From: a virus
Lineage: Duplodnaviria; Heunggongvirae; Uroviricota; Caudoviricetes
Strand: one strand, 5' to 3'
IMG/VR virus record: IMGVR_UViG_2579778919_000004
Span: 1-9,156 of that record
Length of the DNA stretch: 9,156 nucleotides
Shown here piece after piece: positions 3,261-9,156 of the stretch. The notes beneath the pieces were generated by a model that did no database searches, was not told the DNA's origin, and saw only the letters and a list, made by a program, of their open reading frames with translations. A program made the position numbers and the translations under genes. Position 1 is the first letter of the stretch; each line of letters begins with the position of its first letter.

Positions 3261-3481
3261 CGTGCCGCCTCTCGCTGGATTGTCTTGTGGGCTCGCAACA
3301 TATCGCGGGATTTTCCGGACAAAACCGTCTTCATGAAGAACATTCCACTGCGGTTTGCAACTATTCCTGGAGTGCAGATCAGCGTGGCGTCTACCACCCG
3401 GTTATGTTTACGGAATTCAAACACCGTGCTGGTGATAACGATGTTCGCCACGGCGCCGTAGTCCTGGTATTGGATTTTCAT
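3257..3481 (-). CDS. Hypothetical small phage protein, 74 aa
   Basis: ATG at 3479-3481 preceded by GAGGAG with an 8-nt spacer; overlaps the stop of the upstream clamp-like gene (ATGA). Confidence 0.7.
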   Translation of the reverse strand: MKIQYQDYGAVANIVITSTVFEFRKHNRVVDATLICTPGIVANRSGMFFMKTVLSGKSRDMLRAHKTIQREAAR

Positions 3482-4044
3482 GCCAGATGCTCCTCAACAA
3501 TTTTGAAAGCATCATCACGGCATGGCATCACGACGAACTCAGGGTTACCGTATGTAGTGTTGATCACTGGATCGAACTGAATGCGTACCGCTCCAGCCTC
3601 ACCGGAAGGGCGTAACTGGATGGGAATAAACTTTCGCTCGCGACCAAACATCTTTTCCGGATAGCTGAGGTATTCAGCCTGGATAACCGGATTGATACTG
3701 AAATCCACTTTTTTCGGGATGACGCGTTCCATATCAGGAAAACGACCATCAACAAGTTTGATGCCAGTGATCAAGATCCGACGCTCGAACGTGTCGCGGT
3801 GAATGGCAAAGGCTTCTTTGTTGAATACCAGTTCAGTGGTTTCCGCTTTCGCCGGAACCGGTCCTTCAAACTGGACGATGATGTTTTTCTTCGTCCGGAT
3901 GCCGTGCTCCATGCGCAGTGCTACATGCCCGTTAGTTGACTCGATATATTTCGGAGTGATGTGCACACCATTCAGGTAGTAACGGACATCATTTTTTGCA
4001 GCGCATACCAGAGCTGCGCGAATGAGTTTCGACTGGATGATCAT
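3478..4044 (-). CDS. Truncated DNA polymerase III beta sliding clamp (DnaN)-like protein, 188 aa, corresponding to clamp domain II plus an abbreviated domain III
   Basis: Three colinear motifs match E. coli DnaN as I recall it: DVRYYLNG (DnaN domain II, with flanking K-LI-A and T-GH-LA context), KLVDGRFPD..RV.PK (DnaN TSKLVDGRFPDYRRVLPK) and the C-terminal VVMP.R (DnaN ends AAYVVMPMRL). The ORF is about half the length of DnaN (366 aa) and lacks domain I. Strong tandem SD (GGAGGTGGAGG) before the ATG at 4042-4044. Confidence 0.7.
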   Translation of the reverse strand: MIIQSKLIRAALVCAAKNDVRYYLNGVHITPKYIESTNGHVALRMEHGIRTKKNIIVQFEGPVPAKAETTELVFNKEAFAIHRDTFERRILITGIKLVDGRFPDMERVIPKKVDFSINPVIQAEYLSYPEKMFGRERKFIPIQLRPSGEAGAVRIQFDPVINTTYGNPEFVVMPCRDDAFKIVEEHLA

Positions 4045-4871
4045 GCCTCCACCTCCACGAAGATCTCTTTCGGATCCTTACGCAGAACGAAGCCACCAAA
4101 TTCAGGATGTTGCCAGCGCTTGCGTTTACCGCTTGGGGGAACGGATTCTTCCAGCAGCACCTGAAATGCGTGAATGAACGATTCACGGTGTACGCACAGC
4201 CCACGAACTCCCGGCAACTGTCTGGAGGGCAGGTTTGCGAACTGAACAAGACGACGGCACGAAGGATCGGACAGACTGGTTTCCCATGACACTTTGTGTA
4301 CCGGAACGAATTCGGCATCGGTATTCACGAATTCAGTCGAACTAATGCGCCGTTGTGGTAGAGAGGAAGATACAGGCGAAGCAGCAACCAGGTTGGTGCC
4401 ACTCACTTCCATTACTGCTTTCATCGTCGCTGATGCGGTTGCTTCGGCCACAACACGGGCCAGCGAAAGAATGTCATGGTTCATGCTGATTTCCTGCTGG
4501 TGTGATTTAGCTACTGGCACTTCTTTGCTGTATGTGCCTGTGGTCATGATGGCAGGGAGTACATCTTCACAAACCCAGTCCTGTACGCGTTCAGCCGATG
4601 GAAGCTGGCTTCGCAGGATAAGGCGGAACAAGTCGGCCTGACCAGCAAGCTGAGTACCGCGCGGTTTTTCACCAAACCCCAATTCTAACGATTCGTTATA
4701 ATCAAGTTTAATCAATGCCTTGCAGTGGTCTTTCAGCGCTTTTGCTGGGTTCGTATAACCGAGGGATTTAGCCAGTTCTACAGCGTCAAACGCTGGCTTT
4801 CCCTCATAAAGAATTCCGCTCATAGAAAAATTGAGTTCTTCTGAGCTAAAGGTCATAAGTTGTTTATTCAT
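4041..4871 (-). CDS. BRO-N domain protein (phage antirepressor-like N-terminal domain) with an uncharacterised C-terminal half, 276 aa
   Basis: The N-terminal ~120 aa shows a BRO-N pattern: FSSEELNFSMSGILYEGKPAFDAVELAKSLGYTNP ... DLFRLILRSQLPSAERVQDWVCEDVLPAIMTTGTY. ATG at 4869-4871 preceded by GAGGGAAATAACG. The C-terminal ~150 aa has no recognisable motifs. Confidence 0.82.
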   Translation of the reverse strand: MNKQLMTFSSEELNFSMSGILYEGKPAFDAVELAKSLGYTNPAKALKDHCKALIKLDYNESLELGFGEKPRGTQLAGQADLFRLILRSQLPSAERVQDWVCEDVLPAIMTTGTYSKEVPVAKSHQQEISMNHDILSLARVVAEATASATMKAVMEVSGTNLVAASPVSSSLPQRRISSTEFVNTDAEFVPVHKVSWETSLSDPSCRRLVQFANLPSRQLPGVRGLCVHRESFIHAFQVLLEESVPPSGKRKRWQHPEFGGFVLRKDPKEIFVEVEA

Positions 4872-7140: not shown

Positions 7141-7434
7141 TTAAATAGCAGAGAACATTTTCTTAATATCAGGATGGTCATCTATGATTTTTTTAGCATC
7201 ATCACATGCCTCGTCATATGATTTAAAGAAATCAACTAATACGAAATAATTTTCGATGCGTTCGTAAACGGCGAACTCCATCTCACCAACAAATGTCGTA
7301 TTGAATTGGTAATCAAAACCTTTATCGTGAGGCTGCACAGCATGGCAATAAGACCAATGCGAATTGGTTGATCTAAGCTTGGCGTGAATATCAAATGTCT
7401 GGCAGGTAGGTTTTGGTTGGGAGTTTGTGTTCAT
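7141..7434 (-). CDS. Hypothetical mildly acidic protein, 97 aa; first gene downstream of the predicted PL
   Basis: ATG at 7432-7434 preceded by GGAG with an 8-nt spacer. AT-rich composition. The protein is Asp/Glu-rich toward the C-terminus (DEACDDAKKIIDDHPD). It is not basic or Arg-rich, so it does not look like a lambda N-type antiterminator. Confidence 0.68.
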   Translation of the reverse strand: MNTNSQPKPTCQTFDIHAKLRSTNSHWSYCHAVQPHDKGFDYQFNTTFVGEMEFAVYERIENYFVLVDFFKSYDEACDDAKKIIDDHPDIKKMFSAI

Positions 7435-7560
7435 CTCATTGGCTCCGTTGTTTGCCGATGAAATGAGAATACTTAAGTATTAATTGAAGGTCAATGGTAT
7501 TAATACAAAAAGAATAATAGTTTTCTTATGTATTTGTTATTGAAGATTATTTTAGTAATA
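7435..7560 (-). promoter_or_regulatory. Predicted leftward early promoter and operator region (PL/OL analogue)
   Basis: On the minus strand: TTGACC (-35; + strand ggtcaa at ~7489-7494), a 17-nt spacer, then TATTCT (-10; + strand agaata at ~7466-7471), about 25 nt upstream of the ATG at 7434. A perfect 14-bp palindrome AATACTTAAGTATT (~7468-7481) overlaps the -10 and spacer, and a second palindrome GTATTAATAC (~7497-7506) lies just upstream of the -35. Both share the TAATAC half-site found in the cI-cro intergenic region. Confidence 0.4.
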
Positions 7561-7598
7561 AAAAAGCCGACGCTATGGTCGGCTTGGTGCTTTTTTGG
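7559..7598 (-). terminator. Rho-independent terminator downstream of the repressor gene (hairpin flanked by an A-run and a T-run, so potentially bidirectional)
   Basis: AAAAAA-AAGCCGAC-gctatg-GTCGGCTT-ggtgc-TTTTTT: a perfect 8-bp stem with a 6-nt loop. On the minus strand the stem is followed directly by TTTTTTATT, about 20 nt past the repressor stop. Confidence 0.6.
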
Positions 7599-7605
7599 CA
7601 GCGGA

Positions 7606-8298
7606 TCAGAAGATTGTTGATACCCAAAACAGTCTTCCTAAAACTTCAAGACTATCCATGTCTACTTCTTCGTCAGGGTATTCATCAGAGTTGTAGCTTC
7701 TGATTGTCACCTTATCTGGCCCAGATCTGTAGAGGATTTTTAACCTTTTCCATCCACCTTGGTTGATGCCGTAAATTTTACCATCCACGATACGCTTGTC
7801 ATGGCAGTTTATGGCAACAGTTGAGCCATCAGCGATCACTGGCTCCATGCTATTTCCGTGTGCAGCAAAGCATAGAACGCCATCACCATCACTATTAGCT
7901 CCCACCTTTCGCAATGTTGCTTTGGAAAATCTAAGTTTTTTTCCATTGTAATCATCATTAAGGGCGCTGCCATCTCCACATGCGAACTCGATATCCTTCA
8001 AGTAAGGCACCTCTACCTCATCATCCTCAAGCGGCGTTTGCTTATCCCATGGATCTATACCAAACATTCTTTGTTCTGGCGTTTTTGCTGGCCCCATGGT
8101 GCCTTCACCAGTGCTTAACCATATGGGATCTACATCCAGTGCTTTGGCTATATCCACGATTTTTCCGCTGGACTGAGCTTTTCCTGAGGTTAGTTTTTGT
8201 ATGGCCCCCTGGCTTACCCCAACCCTATGCGCTAATTGACTTTGAGTAGCCCCAGCATGAGCCATCGCCAGCCTTAGTCTTTCTGCAAGTGTGTTCAT
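7606..8298 (-). CDS. CI-like prophage repressor: N-terminal XRE-type HTH plus C-terminal S24 (LexA/UmuD-like) autopeptidase domain, 230 aa
   Basis: N-terminal HTH (QSQLAHRVGVSQGAIQKLTSG). C-terminal S24 signatures: GNSMEP (catalytic Ser in a G-x-S-M context) and downstream WKRLK (candidate catalytic Lys). Candidate autocleavage site Cys-Gly in FACGDG, as in UmuD. ATG at 8296-8298 preceded by GGAG. Divergent from a cro-like gene. Confidence 0.9.
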   Translation of the reverse strand: MNTLAERLRLAMAHAGATQSQLAHRVGVSQGAIQKLTSGKAQSSGKIVDIAKALDVDPIWLSTGEGTMGPAKTPEQRMFGIDPWDKQTPLEDDEVEVPYLKDIEFACGDGSALNDDYNGKKLRFSKATLRKVGANSDGDGVLCFAAHGNSMEPVIADGSTVAINCHDKRIVDGKIYGINQGGWKRLKILYRSGPDKVTIRSYNSDEYPDEEVDMDSLEVLGRLFWVSTIF

Positions 8299-8424
8299 CT
8301 TAGTATCTCCGATTTTTATGCATATTTAATACCACAGGATTAACCATGGCAAGCGGATAATACTTGATTAATTATTCCTTTGGTATTATTTTATATCTTT
8401 AATATTAATACTAAGGGCTTTGTT
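8299..8424. promoter_or_regulatory. Divergent immunity control region (OR analogue) with candidate PRM (leftward) and PR (rightward) promoters and repeated TAATAC-type operator half-sites
   Basis: AT-rich 126-bp intergenic region between the divergent repressor and cro-like genes. TAATAC or its complement occurs at ~8327, ~8358, ~8383 (complement) and ~8406. Imperfect palindromes: TAATACCACAGGATTA (~8327-8342), GGATAAT..ATTATTCC (~8355-8378), and CCTTTGGTATTA with TAATACTAAGGG (~8377-8417). Candidate PR: TTGATT (~8364-8369), 17 nt, TATTTT (~8387-8392). Candidate PRM on the minus strand: TTGCCA, 17 nt, TTAAAT (+ strand ~8347-8352 and ~8324-8329). Confidence 0.55.
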
Positions 8425-8667
8425 ATGACTGATGAGGTGTTTGAATCCCCAATGGCGAAAGCCGTGTACGTTGCTGGTGGTCAAAGTTCGCTTGCTAAAA
8501 AGGTTGGCGTTACGCAAGGGGCCGTCTGGAAGTGGGTCAGGGGGATCAAGAAAGTTTCTCCGGTCCATGCAGTGGCAGTATCAAACGCAGTTAATGGAAT
8601 TGTTAAGCCTCATGAACTGCGGCCTGATTTGCCGACTCTTTTCCCGCACCCGGGCAATGAGGTGTGA
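8425..8667 (+). CDS. Cro-like / YdaS-family HTH regulator, 80 aa
   Basis: ATG at 8425 preceded by AAGGG with a 7-nt spacer; the track start at 8380 is a TTG inside the operator region and was rejected. The segment AVYVAGGQSSLAKKVGVTQGAVWKWVRG ... ELRPDL resembles Rac prophage YdaS as I recall it (VVGGQSALARLLGVSPPSVNQWIKG ... ELRPDI). Divergent from the repressor. Confidence 0.8.
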   Translation: MTDEVFESPMAKAVYVAGGQSSLAKKVGVTQGAVWKWVRGIKKVSPVHAVAVSNAVNGIVKPHELRPDLPTLFPHPGNEV

Positions 8668-8668
8668 T

Positions 8669-8878
8669 ATGTCGCACTCAATCACTACCGAAAACCAAAT
8701 TAAGCAATTGGATATCGATTATCGCGATCCGCGCGGTGTGATTGTGCATGTCACCGGCTGGAATCGGGATAAGCAGCAGGTGTATTTCACCAGGCAGAAT
8801 TATCCGCATGAATGTATGCAGCCTGTCTGGAAGTTCCAACAATATTTTACGAAGGTCTCGGAGGCGCAAAATGCGTGA
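8669..8878 (+). CDS. Hypothetical small early protein, 69 aa
   Basis: ATG at 8669-8671 lies 1 nt after the cro-like stop and is preceded by GAGG with a 6-nt spacer. The longer track ORF from 8432 overlaps the cro-like gene in another frame and was rejected. No recognised domain. Confidence 0.6.
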   Translation: MSHSITTENQIKQLDIDYRDPRGVIVHVTGWNRDKQQVYFTRQNYPHECMQPVWKFQQYFTKVSEAQNA

Positions 8879-9156
8879 TTACGGAAAGGTGCCGTCTGAG
8901 TTTTGGTTGGACCAAAACGGCAACAAATGGAAAGTGCCCACGATCAAAGGTCGCCTGAAAATGCGCGTACCCTGCCATCGCGCACTACGCGAATTTGTTC
9001 TTTGGCGCGACGGTTTCAAATGCCGTCATTGTGGTAGTCAAGACCGCATTAAATTGGTCGCAGATCACATTGTATCGCGACGTAACGGTGGTGCTCACCA
9101 CCCAGACAACATGCAATGTTTGTGTGATTCCTGCAATGCGCGCAAGGCTTCCCTAG
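8871..9156 (+). CDS. HNH endonuclease family protein, 3'-truncated by the window edge
   Basis: ATG at 8871 preceded by GGAGG with a 6-nt spacer; overlaps the previous gene by 8 nt. Manual translation: MRDYGKVPSEFWLDQNGNKWKVPTIKGRLKMRVPCHRALREFVLWRDGFKCRHCGSQDRIKLVADHIVSRRNGGAHHPDNMQCLCDSCNARKASL. It has the C-x2-C ... D-H ... N ... H ... C-x2-C arrangement of the HNH motif. Confidence 0.8.
   Translation, partial: MRDYGKVPSEFWLDQNGNKWKVPTIKGRLKMRVPCHRALREFVLWRDGFKCRHCGSQDRIKLVADHIVSRRNGGAHHPDNMQCLCDSCNARKASL

What the first reader, a model, noticed from the sequence alone, without database searches (positions are those of the whole stretch)
8299..8424. Divergent OR region with at least four TAATAC-type half-sites and back-to-back candidate promoters
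The half-site spacing is consistent with multiple operators overlapping the PR and PRM candidates, the classic bistable switch layout. The half-sites differ from lambda operators, so this is a distinct immunity specificity.
Basis: seen in the sequence. Interest (0 to 1): 0.4.

Follow-up and report, generated by a model that had tools for sequence, protein, structure and literature searches.

The report
Prophage repressor/Cro operator region
This is the control region between a prophage's repressor gene and its cro-like gene, an ordinary lambda-style lysis/lysogeny switch whose repressor-binding sites (TTAATAC-N4-GTATTAA) I did not find described in the papers I searched.

Summary
The 126-bp gap between a CI-like repressor gene (7606-8298, minus) and a Cro-like gene (8425-8667, plus) holds exactly four TAATAC hexamers. 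That cluster alone is not significant in such AT-rich DNA. However, three more copies lie in a second intergenic region (7466-7517) in front of the leftward early genes.

The real unit is an 18-bp inverted repeat, TTAATAC-N4-GTATTAA. Across ten prophage lineages whose CI and Cro share the same recognition helices, its 14-bp core matches 37 times, always in these two regions, and never in 41 kb outside them. Sister phages with one altered helix residue use AACAAC-N4-GTTGTT in the same geometry.

In the window, one full operator (8326-8343) overlaps the predicted repressor promoter. Another (8372-8389) overlaps the predicted cro promoter, 46 bp away. A weaker site (8391-8408) covers the predicted cro transcription start. 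No canonical middle operator (OR2) is present.

This is a new member of a known kind: a lambdoid immunity region with its own specificity. Binding, transcription starts and bistability are inferred, not shown. Interest is low to moderate.

The parts
7606..8298 (-). cI-like repressor gene (230 aa): N-terminal 434-type HTH domain, C-terminal S24 (LexA/lambda CI-type) self-cleaving domain
   Evidence: ORF list. Pfam HTH_3 and Peptidase_S24. N-terminal domain matches 434 Cro at E 2e-7. Model: N-terminal domain vs 434 Cro TM 0.93, rmsd 1.1 A; C-terminal domain vs LexA/lambda CI. Ser150 and Lys187 are invariant in 35 homologues. 49% identical to phi80 CI, in the C-terminal domain only.
8425..8667 (+). 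cro-like gene (80 aa), with AAGGG ribosome-binding site at 8413-8417
   Evidence: Pfam YdaS_toxin (Cro superfamily) and a weak P22_Cro match. Nearest solved relatives are Cro proteins. The helix GVTQGAVWKW is identical in all ten lineages that use TAATAC operators.
8326..8343 (.). Operator next to cI ('OR3-like'): TTAATAC CACA GGATTAA, 13 of 14 to consensus. It spans about -27..-10 of the predicted PRM.
   Evidence: Best site in the window. Present in all ten lineages. Half-site columns are 96% conserved while the centre N4 is 72% conserved (8 different centres among 12 unique versions).
8323..8352 (-). Predicted PRM: -35 TTGCCA (8352->8347), 18-bp spacer, -10 TAAATA (8328->8323); start near 8316. 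cI ribosome-binding site GGAG at 8310->8307.
   Evidence: Relaxed consensus scan: TTGCCA-18 in the window, L052 (TAAAAT) and L053 (TAAATG); TTGAAT-17-TAAATT in L047; TTGCAT-16-TAAAAT in L054/55; no cI-side pair listed for L003, L038, L049 or L050. TTGC is invariant in alignment A4. Predicted only.
8357..8363 (+).
   Evidence: Exact TAATAC. It is ATATTAC in most relatives, GTATTAC in L003 and absent in L052. The would-be partner half (8368-8374) is not conserved.
8364..8392 (+). Predicted PR: -35 TTGATT (8364-8369), 17-bp spacer, -10 TATTTT (8387-8392); start near 8399
   Evidence: Relaxed scan lists TTGATT-17-TATTTT, with the -10 ending 31-33 nt before the cro ATG, in the window, L003, L038 and L049. 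L047 has TTGCTA-17-TATCAT at 32 nt. Both hexamers are 93-95% conserved. Predicted only.
8372..8389 (.). Operator over PR ('OR1-like'): TTATTCC TTTG GTATTAT, 11 of 14. It spans about -27..-10 of the predicted PR.
   Evidence: Its centre lies 46 bp from the 8326 operator in seven lineages. In relatives it is closer to consensus (e.g. TTAATAC TATA GTAATAA in L053). Half-sites are 94% conserved.
8391..8408 (.). Weaker operator over the PR start: TTATATC TTTA ATATTAA, 10 of 14. It overlaps the fourth hexamer (TTAATAC, 8405-8411) by TTAA.
   Evidence: At the same place, L054/L055 carry a 13-of-14 palindrome, TTAATAT TTTG GTATTAA. The cro-proximal half is 94% conserved and the other half 81%.
7466..7483 (.). 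OL1: AGAATAC TTAA GTATTAA (core AATACTTAAGTATT, a perfect 14-bp palindrome). It covers the spacer and -10 of PL.
   Evidence: Present in all ten lineages, with its centre 40 nt (39-44 in L038, L003 and L053) from the first leftward start codon. Its centre N4 varies: TTAA, TAAA, TTTG, TCCC.
7500..7517 (.). OL2: TTAATAC AAAA AGAATAA, 11 of 14, just upstream of the PL -35
   Evidence: Relatives carry better versions at the same place (L038 and L052 score 13 of 14).
7466..7494 (-). Predicted PL: -35 TTGACC (7494->7489), 17-bp spacer, -10 TATTCT (7471->7466). It drives ORF 7141-7434 and the leftward early genes.
   Evidence: Standard promoter scan, 9 of 12. The same pair, with the -10 ending 29-33 nt (mostly 31) before the start codon, appears in all ten lineages.
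7564..7585 (.). Two-way intrinsic terminator hairpin between the end of cI and OL
   Evidence: Terminator scan on both strands. Inverted repeat. A hairpin is retained in relatives, with compensating changes by eye.

Best explanation
The region is the right operator/promoter region (OR) of a lambdoid, HK97-like prophage immunity module. A CI repressor and a Cro protein both read the same 18-bp operators, TTAATAC-N4-GTATTAA (core AATAC-N4-GTATT).

In the window, one full operator (8326-8343) lies over the spacer and -10 of the leftward cI promoter (PRM). A second (8372-8389) lies at the mirror-image position over the rightward cro promoter (PR). A weaker third (8391-8408) covers the PR start.

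Two more operators (7466-7483 and 7500-7517) flank the -35 of the leftward early promoter PL.

In a lysogen, CI on the PR and PL operators blocks RNA polymerase and silences lytic genes. Occupancy of the PRM operator, by excess CI or by Cro, shuts off cI. SOS-triggered self-cleavage of CI frees PR.

The PRM operator has the better half-sites but a centre that always contains G/C. The PR and PL operators have A/T-rich centres. By analogy with 434 and P22, where A-tract centres raise repressor affinity, this probably ranks the sites so that PR and PL fill before PRM.

Shown here: gene identities, motif anatomy, conservation and co-variation. Inferred: binding, promoter positions, affinity order and bistability.
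For: - Genes: divergent CI (HTH_3 + Peptidase_S24) and Cro/YdaS genes flank the region. The CI model has a 434 Cro-like N-terminal domain (TM 0.93) and a LexA/lambda CI-like C-terminal domain.
- Motif in the window: 7 of the 8 TAATAC copies lie in two intergenic regions. The top 7 matches to the 18-mer consensus all fall there. Local shuffles give P = 3e-4 for the OR 13-of-14 site, and 1.5e-4 and 3e-3 for OL.
- Relatives: ten lineages whose CI is 60-100% identical share the CI helix SQGAIQKL and the Cro helix TQGAVWKW. AATAC-N4-GTATT (at most 1 mismatch) occurs 37 times in their OR/OL intervals (3.15 kb) and 0 times in 41 kb outside.
- Co-variation: relatives with CI helix SQAAIQKL and Cro SQQAVYKW or SQAAVQKW have ACAAC-N4-GTTGT at the same places and no TAATAC-type site in their OR or OL.
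- Footprint: half-site columns are 94-96% conserved. The O(8326) centre is 72%, leaders 58-68% and gaps 66%.
- Operator centres: the PRM operator centre averages 1.9 G/C. PR averages 0.9, OL1 0.8 and OL2 0.2. The effect of A-tract centres on 434 and P22 repressor affinity is stated in PMC3317979.
- Promoters: positionally matching hexamer pairs for PL in all ten lineages, for PR in five and for PRM in six.
Against: - No binding, footprint or transcript data exist for this phage.
- PR and PRM match the consensus only 8 of 12, and the standard scan missed them.
- An alternative PR (TTGGTA-17-TATTAA) scores the same in the window.
- The best palindrome sits on PRM, not PR. The proposed rescue by centre-base indirect readout is an analogy only.
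- No OR2-like site at about 24 bp is present. It is therefore unknown whether CI activates PRM or binds cooperatively.
- Many of the 37 motif hits are related by descent.
- The OR hexamer cluster alone is not significant after correcting for choice of hexamer (P = 0.24).
Confidence: 0.85

Rival explanations
1. OR is a textbook tripartite lambda-type region. The site 8357-8374 (ATAATAC TTGA TTAATTA) acts as OR2, binds CI cooperatively with 8372-8389, and activates PRM.
For: 8357-8374 scores 10 of 14. It overlaps the PR -35 and ends 4 bp from the PRM -35, roughly where lambda OR2 sits. The outer half-site is 89% conserved. L047, with the same specificity, does have a full operator overlapping its PRM -35.
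Against: The inner half (8368-8374) is not conserved as a half-site in L049, L050 or L052, and the whole outer half is missing in L052. Its centre is only 15 bp from the 8372 operator (3-bp overlap) and 31 bp from the 8326 operator, not about 24 bp. Its centre would lie near -49.5 of PRM, not the roughly -42 I recall for lambda OR2 (my own knowledge).
Confidence: 0.12
2. The TAATAC copies are not protein-binding sites. They are by-products of AT-rich promoter DNA (-10-like TATTAT/TATTAA elements) or chance low-complexity repeats.
For: The region is 28% G+C, and 24% of local shuffles have some hexamer at 4 or more copies. Several half-sites overlap predicted -10 hexamers.
Against: The 7-N4-7 dyad geometry is fixed. 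The same motif occurs at a second locus. There are 37 core matches inside and 0 outside the regulatory regions in ten lineages. Centres vary while half-sites are conserved. The half-site switches to AACAAC where the CI and Cro helices change.
Confidence: 0.02
3. The sites are read by only one of the two phage proteins, or by another regulator (a host nucleoid protein, or the BRO-N/Ant-like protein encoded at 4041-4871). CI or Cro would then use different, unrecognised sites.
For: No binding data exist. CI and Cro have different folds outside the helix-turn-helix. A few lambdoid and telomere phages have Cro proteins with narrower site sets (paper titles listed).
Against: Both recognition helices begin [ST]-Q-G-A. 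Both are invariant across all TAATAC-type lineages, and both change in the AACAAC-type lineages. No other repeated dyad stands out in OR or OL.
Confidence: 0.06

Closest known systems
Phage lambda OR/OL (CI, Cro, PR, PRM, PL)
   Same: Divergent cI and cro genes. Dyad operators overlap the spacer and -10 of both PR and PRM; the positions here, about -27..-10, match my recollection of lambda OR1/PR and OR3/PRM. The predicted PR and PRM starts are about 83 bp apart, and the outer operators are 46 bp apart (I recall 47 bp in lambda). A second operator set lies at PL. CI has an S24 self-cleaving domain.
   Different: The half-site is TTAATAC, not TATCACC, and the operator is 18 bp rather than 17. 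There is no full middle operator (OR2) in the window. OL has two sites 34 bp apart. cI is followed directly by a terminator, with no rex genes. The cI mRNA is predicted to have a leader with GGAG. No cII-like gene follows cro.
Phage 434 repressor/Cro and their 14-bp operators (ACAA-N6-TTGT)
   Same: The CI N-terminal domain is a sequence and fold relative of 434 Cro and 434 repressor. The core operator is 14 bp, with the conserved bases at the same distance from the dyad. Repressor and Cro share the start of the recognition helix. The centre bases vary and differ systematically between sites.
   Different: The recognition helix is SQGAIQKL versus TQQSIEQL in 434 (from memory), and the half-site is AATAC versus ACAA. 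The C-terminal domain is phi80-like. Operator spacing differs. The sister group (L004, L042) does use ACAA-type sites.
Phage P22 c2 repressor and its 18-bp operators
   Same: 18-bp dyad with 7-bp halves and four central base pairs read indirectly. The N-terminal domain fold matches P22 c2 (TM 0.89, rmsd 1.3 A). Cro belongs to the P22_Cro/YdaS family.
   Different: Different half-site sequence (the P22 operator sequence is from memory). Sequence identity to the c2 N-terminal domain is only 27-28%.
Phage phi80 CI
   Same: It is the best-studied phage relative I recognised among the CI matches (49% identity). The C-terminal domain and the FACGDG segment are nearly identical. The gene order cI - OR - cro-like gene is the same.
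   Different: The N-terminal domain is unrelated in sequence. The phi80 operators (AATCAACA / AATCCACA type, read by eye) are different.
Phage 933W switch
   Same: It is a precedent for a lambdoid switch that departs from the lambda paradigm: it lacks OL3, its repressor does not bind adjacent sites cooperatively, and site ranking is set by intrinsic affinity (PMC3317979).
   Different: 933W still has three OR sites. Its repressor and operators are unrelated in sequence to those here.

Membership tests
Lambdoid CI/Cro immunity region (OR switch) | Divergently transcribed repressor (HTH + S24 peptidase) and cro-like genes flank a short intergenic region | tested here: met
   ORFs 7606-8298 (-) and 8425-8667 (+). 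Pfam HTH_3 + Peptidase_S24, and YdaS_toxin/P22_Cro. Structure model.
Lambdoid CI/Cro immunity region (OR switch) | Several dyad-symmetric operators of one sequence family in the intergenic region | tested here: met
   8326-8343 (13 of 14), 8372-8389 (11 of 14) and 8391-8408 (10 of 14), plus partial sites. Conserved in ten lineages.
Lambdoid CI/Cro immunity region (OR switch) | The same operators occur at a second locus (OL) controlling the leftward early promoter | tested here: met
   7466-7483 and 7500-7517 flank the -35 of TTGACC-17-TATTCT.
Lambdoid CI/Cro immunity region (OR switch) | Operators overlap back-to-back promoters PR and PRM | tested here: inconclusive
   Hexamer pairs found in five (PR) and six (PRM) of ten lineages place an operator at about -27..-10 of each promoter. 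The matches are weak (8 of 12), were missed by the standard scan, and no transcription starts are mapped.
Lambdoid CI/Cro immunity region (OR switch) | Three adjacent operators about 23-24 bp apart centre to centre (OR1-OR2-OR3), allowing pairwise cooperativity and PRM activation from OR2 | tested here: not met
   Centre distances in the window are 46 bp (8326 to 8372) and 19 bp (8372 to 8391). The candidate middle site 8357-8374 is not conserved. The sister group L004/L043 does have 24-bp spacing.
Lambdoid CI/Cro immunity region (OR switch) | CI and Cro both bind the operators with opposite preference orders, giving bistability | not testable with these tools
   Indirect evidence only. Both helices co-vary with the half-site, and the centre composition differs between the PRM and PR/PL operators.
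Lambdoid CI/Cro immunity region (OR switch) | RecA-stimulated self-cleavage of the repressor (Ser/Lys dyad and cleavage loop) | tested here: met
   This holds for the sequence features only. GNSMEP Ser150 and Lys187 are invariant in 35 homologues, and the FACGDG loop is conserved with phi80 CI. The fold matches LexA and the lambda CI C-terminal domain. Cleavage itself was not tested.
434-type repressor/operator system | Five-helix 434-like HTH domain | tested here: met
   phmmer E 2e-7 to 434 Cro. Foldseek match to 2cro/3cro: TM 0.93-0.94, rmsd 1.1-1.2 A, 38-39% identity.
434-type repressor/operator system | 14-bp operator ACAA-N6-TTGT | tested here: not met
   The geometry is kept (14-bp core) but the sequence is AATAC-N4-GTATT. 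No ACAAC-N4-GTTGT site exists in the window.

The most novel reading that the evidence does not exclude
In this clade the right operator may work as a symmetric two-operator switch without an OR2. Identical-geometry operators would sit at -27..-10 of back-to-back PR and PRM, 46 bp apart. They would be told apart mainly by indirect readout of their centres (containing G/C at PRM, A/T-rich at PR and PL). A conserved lone half-site lies between the two -35 elements. CI would then not activate its own promoter in the lambda manner, and stability would come from intrinsic affinity ranking, or from OL-OR contacts over only about 0.86 kb. Relatives with the same specificity rearrange the site number and spacing freely: four sites in L047, and two well-separated positions in L054.
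Probability: 0.25. Interest if true: 0.4.

Novelty: new member of a known kind. Interest (0 to 1): 0.25.

Why it matters
The result defines the operator code (TTAATAC-N4-GTATTAA) and the likely promoter and operator map of an immunity type. This type is common in Enterobacter, Klebsiella, Kosakonia, Citrobacter and Serratia prophages, and in the record named Aeromonas phage AsXd-1.

It predicts which prophages should be homo-immune: all lineages with the CI helix SQGAIQKL and the Cro helix TQGAVWKW.

It also offers a natural series for studying how specificity and switch wiring evolve. One Gly/Ala position in the CI recognition helix goes with a change from AATAC to ACAAC half-sites. The same specificity is wired with 2, 3 or 4 operators.

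It does not change the general picture of how temperate phage switches work.

Tried and rejected
- A homologue search with the N-terminal domain alone gave only 5 hits. The full-length search was needed.
- The closest DNA relatives (AsXd-1, E. coli G3/10) are 97% identical and so uninformative for footprinting.
- I looked for a canonical OR2 about 23-24 bp from either full operator. The gap 8344-8371 holds only a lone half-site, and 8357-8374 fails conservation of its inner half.
- The alternative PR, TTGGTA-17-TATTAA (-10 ending 16 nt before the ATG), was rejected as primary. It is lost in L038, L050 and L047 and would remove the ribosome-binding site from the mRNA.
- The perfect 7-bp inverted repeat ATAATAC-N19-GTATTAT (8357-8389) was rejected as a single operator. 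Its half-sites are 26 bp apart (opposite faces of the helix), and one arm is absent in L052.
- The GTATTAATAC palindrome (7497-7506; ATATTAATAC at 8402-8411) was considered as a separate site type. It is better explained as two overlapping half-sites, and it is absent in L047.
- An RNA hairpin in the PL leader was tested. The RNAalifold consensus is weak (-3.95 kcal/mol, covariation -0.01).
- Rfam and tRNA scans of the window found nothing.
- Literature searches for the operator strings, the CI accession and AsXd-1 found no description of this immunity region.

Full report
**What is there.** The window is the left arm of a lambdoid prophage. It carries an integrase (697-2010, minus), an excisionase (2066-2302, minus) and a run of leftward early genes that includes a BRO-N/Ant-like gene. 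These are followed by a 230-aa repressor gene (7606-8298, minus), an 80-aa cro-like gene (8425-8667, plus), a DUF4222 gene and an HNH gene. The finding's coordinates, 8299-8424, are exactly the repressor-cro intergenic space. The repressor has Pfam HTH_3 and Peptidase_S24 domains. Its N-terminal 65 residues match phage 434 Cro and 434 repressor (E 2e-7 to 1e-4). An AlphaFold model (mean pLDDT 83) matches 434 Cro over the N-terminal domain (TM 0.93, rmsd 1.1 A, 39% identity) and LexA/lambda CI over the C-terminal domain. The cro-like protein hits YdaS_toxin (a Cro-superfamily model) and, weakly, P22_Cro. Its nearest solved relatives are Cro proteins.

**Check of the observation.** TAATAC occurs exactly four times in 8299-8424: at 8327 (+), 8358 (+), 8383 (-) and 8406 (+). 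It occurs eight times in the whole window, against 3.0 expected. Dinucleotide shuffles of the 126-bp region (28% G+C) reach four TAATAC in only 5e-5 of cases. However, some hexamer reaches four copies in 24% of shuffles, so the cluster alone, chosen after the fact, is not significant. The decisive point is that three of the other four copies lie within 30 bp (7477-7506) in the only other sizeable intergenic region nearby, upstream of the first leftward gene. The local shuffle probability there is 1.5e-4.

**The real unit.** The hexamers are parts of an 18-bp inverted repeat, TTAATAC-N4-GTATTAA. The seven best matches to this consensus in the whole 9156 bp all fall in the two intergenic regions.
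- In OR: 8326 (13 of 14), 8372 (11), 8357, 8391 and 8405 (10 each).
- In the second region: 7466 (12; its 14-bp core AATACTTAAGTATT is a perfect palindrome) and 7500 (11).

**Relatives.** The nearest DNA matches are 97% identical and uninformative. They are the record named Aeromonas phage AsXd-1 (Hendrixvirinae) and a prophage of E. coli G3/10. Protein-guided searches gave 40 IMG/VR loci, a Kosakonia prophage (CI 92% identical) and loci with CI at 87, 84 and 83% identity. Most usefully, they gave three more distant groups with CI 67, 64 and 60% identical, from an unnamed metagenome lineage, Citrobacter and Serratia. These keep the same recognition helix, SQGAIQKL. All ten lineages also share the Cro helix GVTQGAVWKW.

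In these ten lineages the core AATAC-N4-GTATT (at most one mismatch) occurs 37 times. Every hit is in the cI-cro or cI-downstream intergenic interval (3.15 kb in all). None is in the remaining 41 kb.

**Co-variation.** Relatives with CI 60-66% identical whose helix reads SQAAIQKL/I, and whose Cro reads SQQAVYKW or SQAAVQKW, carry ACAAC-N4-GTTGT at the corresponding places. That is a 434-like ACAA-N6-TTGT site in the same geometry. They have no TAATAC-type site in OR or OL; the one AATAC-type near-match in L004/L043 (position 4667) lies outside the annotated OR and OL clusters. So half-site, CI helix and Cro helix change together. This is the strongest computational evidence that both proteins read these sites.

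**Footprint within the window's own architecture group.** The figures below come from a ten-sequence alignment.

| Columns | Conservation |
|---|---|
| Half-sites of the 8326 operator | 96% |
| Half-sites of the 8372 operator | 94% |
| Centre N4 of the 8326 operator | 72% |
| cI and cro leaders | 58-68% |
| Gaps between elements | 66% |

Over all loci, the 8326-type operator has 12 distinct versions with 8 different centres but almost invariant halves.

**Promoters (predicted).** The standard scan finds PL: TTGACC-17-TATTCT (7494->7466, 9 of 12). It finds nothing in 8299-8424. A relaxed scan (8 of 12, A at -11) gives TTGATT-17-TATTTT rightward (8364-8392) and TTGCCA-18-TAAATA leftward (8352->8323). 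The cro-side pair recurs in four lineages, and L047 has TTGCTA-17-TATCAT at the same distance. Across lineages:
- The -10 of PL ends 29-33 nt (mostly 31) before the start codon in all ten lineages; the -10 of PR ends 31-33 nt before the cro ATG in the five lineages where the scan lists it.
- PRM reads TTGCCA-18-TAAAAT in L052, TTGCCA-18-TAAATG in L053, TTGCAT-16-TAAAAT in L054 and L055, and TTGAAT-17-TAAATT in L047. The scan lists no cI-side pair for L003, L038, L049 or L050.

With these assignments the layout is mirror-symmetric. The 8372 operator spans about -27..-10 of PR, and the 8326 operator spans about -27..-10 of PRM. The two predicted starts are about 83 bp apart, and the two -35 hexamers are back to back, 11 bp apart. 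The weaker 8391-8408 site covers -8..+10 of PR. At the same place, L054 and L055 carry a 13-of-14 palindrome. OL1 covers -24..-7 of PL, and OL2 lies just upstream of its -35. In relatives OL2 is a much better site, for example TTAATAT TATT GTATTAA in L038.

**What is not there.** There is no lambda-like middle operator. The two full OR operators are 46 bp apart centre to centre in seven lineages. From my own knowledge, lambda's OR1 and OR3 are 47 bp apart. The 28-bp gap between them holds only the lone half-site ATAATAC (8357-8363). That half-site is ATATTAC in most relatives and absent in L052, and its would-be partner half is not conserved. The Citrobacter lineage L047, with the same specificity, has four full operators at 22, 25 and 41 bp spacing; by eye, one overlaps the -35 of its predicted PRM. 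The ACAAC-type sister group has regular 24-bp spacing. So wiring varies within one repressor family. The window's version cannot be assumed to activate PRM or to bind cooperatively as lambda does.

**Likely mechanism.** This is the standard CI/Cro logic:
- CI bound at the PR and PL operators occludes RNA polymerase.
- Occupancy of the 8326 operator shuts off cI.
- RecA-stimulated self-cleavage relieves repression. Ser150 and Lys187 are invariant, and the FACGDG loop is shared with phi80 CI.

One apparent oddity is that the best palindrome sits on PRM rather than PR. The centres offer an explanation. The PRM operator's centre always contains G/C (mean 1.9 of 4). The PR, OL1 and OL2 centres are A/T-rich (means 0.9, 0.8 and 0.2). 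For 434 and P22 repressors, A-tracts at operator centres raise affinity through indirect readout (PMC3317979, read). The same rule here would rank PR and PL sites above the PRM site. This step is inference by analogy.

**Comparison and novelty.** Functionally this is a lambda-type immunity region. The repressor is a mosaic of a 434-like N-terminal domain and a phi80-like C-terminal domain (49% identity to phi80 CI, confined to the C-terminal part). The operator has the 18-bp, four-centre-base geometry of P22 and a 14-bp core like that of 434. The half-site matches none of lambda, 434 or P22 (those from my own knowledge), nor what I read in the phi80 operator regions. I found no paper describing this operator or this immunity region. 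That search covers open-access text only. Departures from the three-operator paradigm are already known, for example in 933W (PMC3317979). I therefore file it as a new member of a known kind, of modest interest.

Noticed in passing
window 7435-7467 (minus strand), and the equivalent in L003-L055: The leader of the first leftward gene (CATCGGCAAACAACGGAGCC before the ATG) is almost invariant across lineages, even where the downstream gene differs and CI is only 60-64% identical. An inverted repeat, CTCATT/AATGAG (7462-7467 / 7435-7440), brackets it. Its 5' arm lies upstream of the predicted PL start, so only read-through transcripts from cI would contain both arms.
   Followed up: partly
window 8377-8388 and 8406-8417: A 12-nt imperfect inverted repeat (CCTTTGGTATTA / TAATACTAAGGG) joins the PR operator to the cro ribosome-binding site. 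Its 5' arm lies upstream of the predicted PR start. By eye it is not conserved in L038.
   Followed up: partly
L001 (MH178096, 'Aeromonas phage AsXd-1') versus window 7400-8700 and L002: The record named as an Aeromonas salmonicida phage is 97% identical over the immunity region to an E. coli G3/10 prophage. Its CI is 100% identical to the window's CI and to many IMG/VR viral contigs. Source names for close CI relatives and fragments are Enterobacter and Klebsiella. The host label may deserve a check.
   Followed up: no
L004/L043 2389-2480 and 4746-4783; L042 2388-2432 and 3328-3365: Sister prophages with the same CI C-terminal domain use ACAAC-N4-GTTGT operators (434-like ACAA-N6-TTGT) at regular 24-bp spacing. 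A single Gly-to-Ala difference in the CI recognition helix (SQGAIQKL vs SQAAIQKL) accompanies the change of half-site.
   Followed up: partly
L047 1365-1503; L054 1371-1503: The same operator specificity is wired differently in other lineages. The Citrobacter type has four full operators in OR (centres 22, 25 and 41 bp apart) and OL sites 25 bp apart. The Serratia type has a cI-proximal operator 65 bp from an overlapping pair of sites next to cro.
   Followed up: partly
window 7564-7585: A two-way intrinsic terminator lies directly after cI, between cI and OL. There are no rex-like genes between cI and the leftward promoter.
   Followed up: no
window 8669-9156: cro is followed by a DUF4222 gene and an HNH endonuclease gene rather than a recognisable cII. 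How lysogeny is established (a PRE-type promoter and its activator) is not evident in the window.
   Followed up: no
window 3478-4044 (minus): This 188-aa protein hits a PHROG annotated 'RusA-like Holliday junction resolvase' (1e-64). It also hits, weakly, DNA polymerase processivity-factor families. The family name may be unreliable.
   Followed up: no
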